64,000 nucleotides of DNA from Saccostrea echinata (lineage: Eukaryota), in contig NW_026889763.1 of NCBI RefSeq assembly GCF_033153115.1, positions 15,934,001-15,998,000 of the forward strand, read 5' to 3'. Positions 42,123 through 42,766 of the stretch are shown in pieces. The position numbers were made by a program, and so were the translations under genes. How positions within the stretch are numbered: position 1 is the stretch's first letter; every line of letters begins with the position of its first letter. The notes beneath the pieces were generated by a model. That model was given only the letters and a program-made list of their open reading frames with translations. It ran no database searches and had not been told where the DNA came from.

Positions 42123-42244
42123 AGGCAAGGAGTTTAAATAAGAGAAAGCAGCCAATTCAGGATTATTTCTTTACATCTGTTTTGGTAGCATGTCTGTGTT
42201 TCTATATGCCGACAGGGCTGTTAGCGGTCAACTATGCTAAAAAG
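42123..42244 (+). CDS. CD225/dispanin protein, exon 2
   Basis: EARSLNKRKQPIQDYFFTSVLVACLCFYMPTGLLAVNYAKK carries the CD225 signature DY...S.....C...P.G..A. The donor is in phase 0. Confidence 0.85.
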
Positions 42245-42766
42245 GTAACTTACGTCCGTGTTTCTACATGTCGACAGGGCTTTTAGCGGTCAACTATGCT
42301 AAAAAGGTACATGAATCTCACTTATGATTGTATTTTACATACCGACAGGGCTGTACGTAATAACGGTAAATTATGCTAAAAAGGTAACATGTCGTGTGTT
42401 TCCACATGCTGACAGGGCTGTTAGCGGTTAAATACGCTACAGAGGTAACTCATGTCTGTGTTTCTACATACCGACTGGGCTGTTAGCGGTTAAATACGCT
42501 ACAGAGGTAACTCGTGTCTGTTTCTATACATACCGACTGGGCTGTTAGCGGTTAAATACGCTACAGAGGTAACTCATGTCTGTGTTTCTATTTGCAGACA
42601 GGGCTGTTAGCGGTTAAATACGCTACAGAGGTAACTCATGTCTGTGTTTCTATACATACCGACTGGGCTATTATAGCGGTCAATGTATCTATACATACCG
42701 ACTGGGCTATTATAGCGGTCAATGTATCTATACATACCGACTGGGCTATTATAGCGGTCAGGTAAC
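42189..42766 (+). repeat. ~62-bp minisatellite derived from the dispanin exon-2 3' end plus splice donor
   Basis: About 8 units of CATGTCTGTGTTTCTACATRCCGACAGGGCTGTTAGCGGT...AAG/GAG|GTAACT, then shortened ~38-bp units. Confidence 0.9.

What the first reader, a model, noticed from the sequence alone, without database searches (positions are those of the whole stretch)
42189..42766. A minisatellite born from a coding exon end: serial copies of the dispanin exon-2 splice donor
The first unit of the ~62-bp repeat is the last ~55 nt of exon 2 (ACLCFYMPTGLLAVNYAKK) plus GTAACT. About 7 further copies follow in the intron, most keeping an AG|GTA donor, then shorter ~38-bp units, and finally another CAG|GTAACT. 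Reading through the first donor hits TAG in the next unit, so downstream donors would give truncated or NMD-target transcripts. The array could act as competing donors, tune expression of an IFITM-family membrane gene, or serve as a gene-conversion reservoir for the intramembrane segment (all inference).
Basis: partly seen in the sequence, partly recalled or inferred. Interest (0 to 1): 0.7.

Follow-up and report, generated by a model that had tools for sequence, protein, structure and literature searches.

The report
Oyster exon-end repeat with silent donors
In a rock oyster, the end of one exon of a small membrane-protein gene and its splice signal are copied several times into the next intron, but every assembled transcript seen splices at the first signal, so this is likely an ordinary, harmless repeat of a kind known from human, lancelet and chicken genes, whose far copies likely preserve an older version of the exon.

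Summary
The array is real. The last 56 nt of exon 2 of a single-copy oyster CD225/dispanin gene plus its donor are repeated as six more ~62-nt units, a truncated unit and two 39-nt units: 7 spare AG|GTA donors. Any spare donor gives one 74-aa product that stops in unit 2. Contigs from 6 of 6 likely RNA runs (2 studies) join only 42244 to exon 3; minor or NMD-cleared forms could be missed. This is the known exon-boundary minisatellite (human F7, IFI6, CBS; amphioxus 'mirages'; chicken exon stuttering). A second case lay in 1 of 90 other loci of this genome, and the scan found the type before on other DNA, in this genome too. One extra: distal units 4-7 encode K57/T60, the residues of the S. cucullata orthologue at the only two sites where the two exon ends differ, while the exon and units 2-3 encode N57/K60. 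The array thus records an older exon state. Whether the new residues arose in the exon or came from a unit is unresolved; the exon as source is likelier. Competing donors are not supported.

The parts
41305..41365 (+). Coding part of exon 1 of the CD225/dispanin gene (transcript contig reaches back to 41240)
   Evidence: ATG and donor located; joined model is 102 aa and matches database protein P0003; contigs of X2 and X4 join it to exon 2
42123..42244 (+). Exon 2; its last 56 nt (42189-42244) are the first repeat unit (U1)
   Evidence: Translation; TRF start 42189; contig pieces
42245..42250 (+). Authentic donor AAG|GTAACT, the only one seen in use
   Evidence: Joint 42244-46830 in 4 of 4 runs; loose ends reading exon 3 at this place in 4 of 4 runs
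42245..42383 (+). Proximal units U2 (62 nt, donor 42306) and U3 (77 nt, degenerate, donor 42383); exon-like end V-N-Y-A-K-K
   Evidence: Unit split and translation; codon table
42284..42286 (+). In-frame TAG met on read-through; ends the 74-aa product of every spare donor
42384..42630 (+). Distal units U4-U7 (donors 42444, 42506, 42568, 42630); end V-K-Y-A-T-E, with the sister-species residues K57 and T60; 35 nt invariant among them
42631..42767 (+). Truncated unit U8 (53 nt), two 39-nt deletion-derived units and the terminal CAG|GTAACT (donor 42761), likely the original intron start
   Evidence: 'original intron start' is inference from unique sequence following it
46830..46955 (+). Coding part of exon 3 (second hydrophobic segment and stop)
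   Evidence: Translation; joint

Best explanation
A 62-nt stretch spanning the end of exon 2 and its donor is tandemly repeated into intron 2, the transcripts seen splice only at the first donor, and the spare donors are likely silent by-products of local repeat growth. Shown: the array, its single locus, the 74-aa product of any spare donor, the splice used, and the match of distal units to the sister species' residues. Inferred: the first duplication happened while the exon still encoded K57/T60 (slippage or unequal exchange, possibly seeded by GGTA at 42184 and 42244); the exon then changed to N57/K60 at two naturally variable sites; later duplication or conversion from the exon end gave units 2-3 the new state; units went on exchanging part-unit tracts; deletions made the 39-nt units. 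The first donor likely wins by position (first donor after the exon-2 acceptor, as tested for human F7). Any leak makes a truncated, mostly NMD-prone message, so selection would only need to keep the first copy intact.
For: Only joint from the array region is 42244-46830 in 4 of 4 runs; X3 and X5 have zero depth over 42326-42767 and exon-only depth in the bin that holds 42306. In 4 of 4 runs the only loose end in the array is at the first donor and reads exon 3. All spare donors give one 74-aa product. The same architecture occurs at a tetraspanin exon in 1 of 90 other loci of this genome, where such arrays cover 1.1% of the DNA. U4-U7 match the S. cucullata residues at both differing sites (chance 0.003 in simulation); sites 57 and 60 differ among all oyster orthologues (R/R/K/N and R/H/T/K). 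U4-U7 carry E at invariant K61, and U2-U4 and U6-U7 carry other damaging changes, as expected of unconstrained copies. Precedent: PMC1557585, PMC3087553, PMC12954441.
Against: Only contigs were available; they drop rare forms, depth was 3-32, and NMD would deplete the very transcripts sought. X6 is another species and may lack the array. The terminal donor (42761) scores as high as the real one (5.2 against 5.0) and pairs better with U1 in a duplex estimate (-8.0 against -6.5 kcal/mol). In human 6-16 and CBS the nearest pseudo-sites are used (PMC1557585 introduction). A 35-nt run is invariant in U4-U7 while the other 27 columns hold 15 variable ones (P 0.012 to 1e-5 by how events are counted); tract conversion explains this, but constraint is not excluded. 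Silence by position was tested in mammalian cells, not in molluscs.
Confidence: 0.75

Rival explanations
1. Leaky competing donors: a minor share of transcripts uses the spare donors and is truncated or degraded, so copy number lowers or tunes the level of the protein, as reported for human 6-16 and CBS.
For: 7 spare donors keep AG|GTA, four with GTAACT or GTAACA-like cores close to the real one. Precedent in 6-16 and CBS. A 92-nt contig of depth 2.2 lies on the array in X2.
Against: 0 of 6 runs show a junction or loose end at a spare donor. The 92-nt contig equals one unit plus a 30-nt overlap whose two ends are identical, the form a collapsed repeat takes in a 31-mer graph; it has no exon-3 tail and fits unspliced RNA or DNA. 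No trace of regulation was found.
Confidence: 0.12
2. Two-way reservoir: N57 and K60 arose in an intronic copy and were copied into the exon by gene conversion or unequal crossover, so the array has supplied amino-acid changes to the protein.
For: Exon and distal units differ at 5 of the last 21 nt but at only 2-3 of the preceding 32 nt for U5 and U7. U2 is identical to the exon over the last 24 nt yet differs at 6 of the first 32. The degenerate U3 already has N57 and K60. 5' and 3' half-types occur in all four combinations, which implies exchange between units.
Against: The U1/U2 identical run is not significant once the window is free (P 0.20). Sites 57 and 60 differ among all four oyster proteins aligned, so plain substitution suffices. 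No allele carrying a unit variant was seen in the depth >= 3 exon contigs of 5 runs. Shared states do not give a direction. Polarity is fair for site 57 (R, R, K, N) and unclear for site 60.
Confidence: 0.11
3. Assembly artefact: the array or its mosaic pattern comes from consensus errors.
For: One haplotype only was seen; no DNA run was laid.
Against: A contig from an independent-looking run matches 42415-42506 with 0 differences, across a unit junction. Units differ in a patterned way that matches a sister species.
Confidence: 0.02

Closest known systems
Human F7 intron 7 37-bp VNTR (Borensztajn et al. 2006, PMC1557585; abstract and 12 passages seen)
   Same: First unit spans the exon-intron boundary; the donor is repeated 5-9 times; only the most upstream donor is used.
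   Different: F7 units are mostly intronic (4 exon nt + 33 intron nt) with identical donors. Here 56 of 62 nt are coding, donors have diverged, and units can be read against orthologues. Copy-number polymorphism is shown for F7 and untested here.
Human 6-16 (IFI6) intron 2, CBS intron 13, lamin B2 and PDGF intron 4 minisatellites (as described in the introduction of PMC1557585; the 6-16 paper itself was not held)
   Same: Reiterated donor after the real one; lamin B2 and PDGF use only the real donor.
   Different: 6-16 and CBS also use the nearest pseudo-sites, which was not seen here; those arrays have 10-25 copies.
Amphioxus 'mirages' (Adh3, globins BflGb6 and BflGb9; Ebner et al. 2010, PMC3087553; 7 passages seen; author name recalled)
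   Same: Minisatellite-like tandem copies of an exon boundary in an invertebrate, 81-100% identity, normal splicing kept, concerted evolution inside the array with the edges left out.
   Different: Different phylum and gene; the passages seen report no match of distal units to a sister species' exon.
Chicken 'exon stuttering' (Hron et al. 2026, PMC12954441; abstract and 12 passages seen)
   Same: A lateral part of a coding exon with its splice site is copied through the adjacent intron; strictly local origin.
   Different: Those are massive, GC-rich, dot-chromosome expansions with shown length variation; this is a 580-nt array in AT-rich DNA.
CD225/dispanin family (Pfam PF04505); Magallana 'proline rich transmembrane protein 1B-like'
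   Same: Host protein scores 39.5 bits, over the 27.1 cut-off; orthologues at 82%, 67% and 63% identity.
   Different: No evidence that it is an IFITM-subfamily or interferon-induced protein; 0 of 30 other CD225 loci checked has an exon-end array.

Membership tests
Exon-boundary minisatellite (F7-type pseudo-site array, mirage, exon stuttering) | Head-to-tail repeat whose first unit spans an exon-intron boundary | tested here: met
   TRF 42189-42673 begins 56 nt inside exon 2; exon end fixed by contigs
Exon-boundary minisatellite (F7-type pseudo-site array, mirage, exon stuttering) | Splice signal reiterated in the intronic copies | tested here: met
   7 further AG|GTA sites
Exon-boundary minisatellite (F7-type pseudo-site array, mirage, exon stuttering) | Local origin, not a dispersed repeat | tested here: met
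   1 match in the assembly; 5 of 5 pattern matches at this locus
Exon-boundary minisatellite (F7-type pseudo-site array, mirage, exon stuttering) | Normal mRNA made from the authentic (first) site | tested here: met
   6 of 6 runs, contigs only
VNTR in the strict sense | Copy number varies between individuals | not testable with these tools
   One haplotype in the assembly; no DNA run laid; RNA contigs do not span the array
Arrays with used pseudo-sites (6-16, CBS type) | Downstream donors used at a detectable level | tested here: inconclusive
   0 of 6 runs show it, but contigs of depth 3-32 drop rare forms
Gene-conversion reservoir for the exon | Exon alleles carry tracts derived from intronic copies | tested here: inconclusive
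   No such allele in 5 runs (3 samples); exon shares N57/K60 with U2-U3, direction unknown
CD225/dispanin (PF04505) | Pfam CD225 match over the curated cut-off | tested here: met
   P0003 39.5 bits against 27.1
IFITM subfamily of dispanins | Placement in the IFITM clade, interferon induction | not tested
   No tree built; orthologue named PRRT1B-like by a source

The most novel reading that the evidence does not exclude
The intronic copies are a layered archive of the exon's own past and exchange tracts with it in both directions: the residues N57 and K60 that set this oyster's dispanin apart from S. cucullata arose in a neutrally drifting copy and were written into the coding exon, making an exon-boundary minisatellite a local source of protein change.
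Probability: 0.12. Interest if true: 0.55.

Novelty: new member of a known kind. Interest (0 to 1): 0.22.

Why it matters
As found, it is one more exon-boundary minisatellite and shows that first-donor priority holds in a bivalve gene even when a downstream site scores as well. Its modest use is historical: because 56 of 62 nt are coding, the units can be read against orthologues and date the array relative to two amino-acid changes. If exchange into the exon were shown, such arrays, which touch about 1 in 90 sampled exon loci here, would be a small but general route for protein change.

Tried and rejected
Structural masking of the spare donors: U4-U7 donors are predicted harder to open than the real one (2.7-4.6 against 1.2-1.9 kcal/mol), but no more than flank-shuffled controls (56-82 of 150 shuffles reach them), and the used exon-1 donor is harder still (6.0). 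Rejected as a specific mechanism. Recent U1/U2 homogenisation: P 0.028 with a fixed window, 0.20 with a free one; not claimed. The X2 contig ending at 42506 as a splice at that donor: explained by identical 30-nt ends, no loose end. Orthologous DNA: metagenome scan gave 131 pattern matches and 0 relatives, so the sister-species locus was not seen. The profile search of 1.84 billion representatives gave 15 hits and no new Saccostrea or Ostrea exon-2 end among the 3 new ones read. No run was on record as RNA; RNA status rests on the spliced joints. The other long arrays of the window (44 nt at 4913-5351, 74 nt at 15310-16115) were read and could not be tied to an exon. The first script run of the gene model used a start 2 nt off and was redone. 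Paper searches listed no report of this locus or of such arrays in oysters; only listings were seen for most hits, and subscription journals are not covered. No supplements were read; the amphioxus supplements hold unit trees that may bear on whether exon-unit exchange has been described.

Full report
OBSERVATION. TRF reports a 62-nt array at 42189-42673 (7.6 copies) and a 39-nt array at 42645-42760 (3.0 copies). The host gene has three coding exons: 41305-41365, 42123-42244 and 46830-46955; joined they give 102 aa. A search with the exon-2 peptide returned a 102-aa protein, P0003, that a source lists as Saccostrea echinata LOC133187278 and that reads the same as my model. It scores 39.5 bits on Pfam CD225, cut-off 27.1. 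Orthologues come from S. cucullata (82% identity), Magallana (67%, named PRRT1B-like) and C. virginica (63%). The array starts 56 nt inside exon 2. Cut at each donor, the units are U2 62 nt, U3 77, U4 61, U5-U7 62 each, U8 53 (no donor), and two of 39 nt, the last ending CAG|GTAACT. That makes 7 spare AG|GTA donors: 42306, 42383, 42444, 42506, 42568, 42630, 42761. The array DNA has one match in the assembly and a unit pattern has 5 matches, all here.

CONSEQUENCE OF USING A SPARE DONOR. Read-through meets TAG at 42284-42286. Every spare donor gives the same 74-aa product without the exon-3 hydrophobic segment; the stop lies 20 nt before the junction for 42306 and 97-475 nt before it for the others. 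So the array cannot diversify the protein by splicing; it could only lower the yield.

WHICH DONOR IS USED. Six runs were listed, none on record as RNA, from 2 studies; all 6 were laid, as contigs. On 41000-47600, 4 of 4 runs (X1, X2, X3, X5) show the GT..AG joint 42244-46830 at depth 5.8-32; none of the other 11 joints listed starts in the array. The loose-end and piece tables of that call were cut, but X3 and X5 have no depth over 42326-42767, and their depth in bin 42105-42325 equals exon-only cover (17.7 = 32.1 x 122/221; 8.26 against 8.28). On 41100-42850, 4 of 4 runs (X1, X2, X4, X6) have one loose end in the array region, at the first donor, reading exon 3. X6 is another organism label with 8 differences in 98 nt of exon 2 and may lack the array. 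X2 has one 92-nt contig on 42415-42506, depth 2.2, 0 differences, no loose end. Its first and last 30 nt are identical, so it is one collapsed unit, not a splice at 42506; it shows unspliced RNA or DNA and confirms a unit junction. Limits: contigs drop rare forms and NMD would deplete them, so minor use is not excluded.

ALLELES. Exon-2 pieces of X2, X3 and X5 (122 nt) and of X1 (42179-42245) have 0 differences; X4 has 1, at 42151, outside the repeated part; a depth-2.5 contig of X1 has 1 unplaced difference between 42123 and 42212. No unit-derived allele was seen in 3 samples.

HISTORY IN THE UNITS. Over the 18 codons of the repeated part, the S. echinata and S. cucullata proteins differ at two sites only: N57/K and K60/T. 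U4-U7 read K57 and T60, the sister's residues; the exon, U2 and U3 read N57 and K60. Eight random substitutions hit both sister residues in 0.3% of a million trials. The outgroups have R57, so K is likely the older state; site 60 (R, H, T, K) cannot be polarised. At 42205 X6 has C, as do U2, U4, U5, U6 and U8, while the exon and U7 have T. At 42211 and 42214 the X6 letters are not those of the units. U4-U7 also carry E61 where all four proteins have K, an array-only change. The simplest reading is that the array began before the exon changed and that units 2-3 took up the new state later. The opposite direction, unit to exon, is not excluded. For it: 5 differences between exon and U4-U7 in the last 21 nt, U2 identical to the exon over 24 nt but 6 differences in the 32 nt before, and a degenerate U3 that already has N57/K60. 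Against it: the U1/U2 run is not significant with a free window (P 0.20), and sites 57 and 60 differ in every oyster compared. Among U4-U7, 15 of 62 columns vary but a 35-nt run is invariant (P 0.012 for 8 events, 1e-5 for 15), and 5' and 3' half-types occur in all four combinations, though the fourth rests on single sites. Part-unit exchange between copies is the likely cause (inference).

WHY THE FIRST DONOR WINS. Not strength alone: the terminal donor scores 5.2 against 5.0 on a rough matrix and -8.0 against -6.5 kcal/mol with U1, though the nearest spare donor is the weakest (2.5). Not special structure: the lower accessibility of U4-U7 donors is matched by shuffled flanks. Position is the best candidate: in human F7, identical downstream pseudo-sites are functional but silent, and the most upstream one is chosen (PMC1557585). 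That was shown in mammalian cells; applying it here is inference.

HOW COMMON. I scanned all 90 loci returned for three families in this genome (30 of 62 CD225 matches, 30 of 117 P450, 30 of 51 tetraspanin); they include overlaps, haplotig pairs and single-exon genes. Twelve of 90 hold an array of period 20-130 with 3 or more copies; these cover 1.1% of 302 kb; 1 of 90 touches the matched exon. That one, L088, is an 86-nt copy of a tetraspanin exon end with its GTGAGT donor, four donors in all. About 2 touched edges would be expected from 1.1% cover, so no enrichment is needed (rough). Among the 30 CD225 loci none has an exon-end array; one has an 11-nt repeat beside the match in intron-like sequence. 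The scan's own notes list 104 findings with these words in at least 36 genomes, two of them in this genome; I used them as leads only.

COMPARISON. The arrangement meets the tested features of exon-boundary minisatellites: human F7, 6-16, CBS, lamin B2 and PDGF, amphioxus mirages and chicken exon stuttering. Copy-number variation could not be tested. My four paper searches listed no report of this locus or of an oyster case.

VERDICT. Real, ordinary, a new member of a known kind. Silent by-product 0.75, leaky donors 0.12, reservoir into the exon 0.11, artefact 0.02. Interest 0.22; the record of the older exon state in the distal units is the only unusual detail.

Noticed in passing
L088:1297-1704 (G000:C8:10760636-10761043, minus strand): A tetraspanin exon end (about 80 nt) with its GTGAGT donor is tandemly copied into the next intron, four donors in all: a second array of the same type in this genome.
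   Followed up: partly
window 41885-42011: One depth-2.5 contig of X1 joins this intron-1 stretch (ending AT|GTATAT) to the exon-2 acceptor at 42123: a possible minor alternative upstream exon.
   Followed up: no
window 42858-43156: Multi-copy element about 90 nt behind the array, with contig depth in the thousands in all four runs and an inverted copy at 8327-8518; looks SINE-like (label recalled, not tested).
   Followed up: no
window 43365-45221 (-) and 9078-11825 (+): Two related LINE-like reverse-transcriptase frames (619 and 916 aa, RVT_1; 71-73% DNA identity); the first lies antisense inside intron 2 between two copies of a 99-nt repeat at 43216-43314 and 45945-46043 that face each other.
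   Followed up: partly
window 4913-5351 and 15310-16115: Two young, homogeneous minisatellites (44 nt x 10, 96%; 74 nt x 11, 94%); the first holds TTTAG|GTAATG and the second TTCAG|G in each unit, but no exon could be tied to them.
   Followed up: partly
window about 17180-30656 (-): A multi-exon gene with cysteine-rich EGF-like exons (laminin EGF match at 30408-30656) and a tyrosine-motif tail, MEGF10-like by recall.
   Followed up: no
G000 contigs C12, C13/C50, C54/C30/C16: CD225 family is expanded: 62 exon matches, several tandem clusters, some present twice on different contigs like retained haplotigs.
   Followed up: no
window 46910-46911: X2, X3 and X5 read TT where the window has AA, a two-letter coding difference in exon 3.
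   Followed up: no
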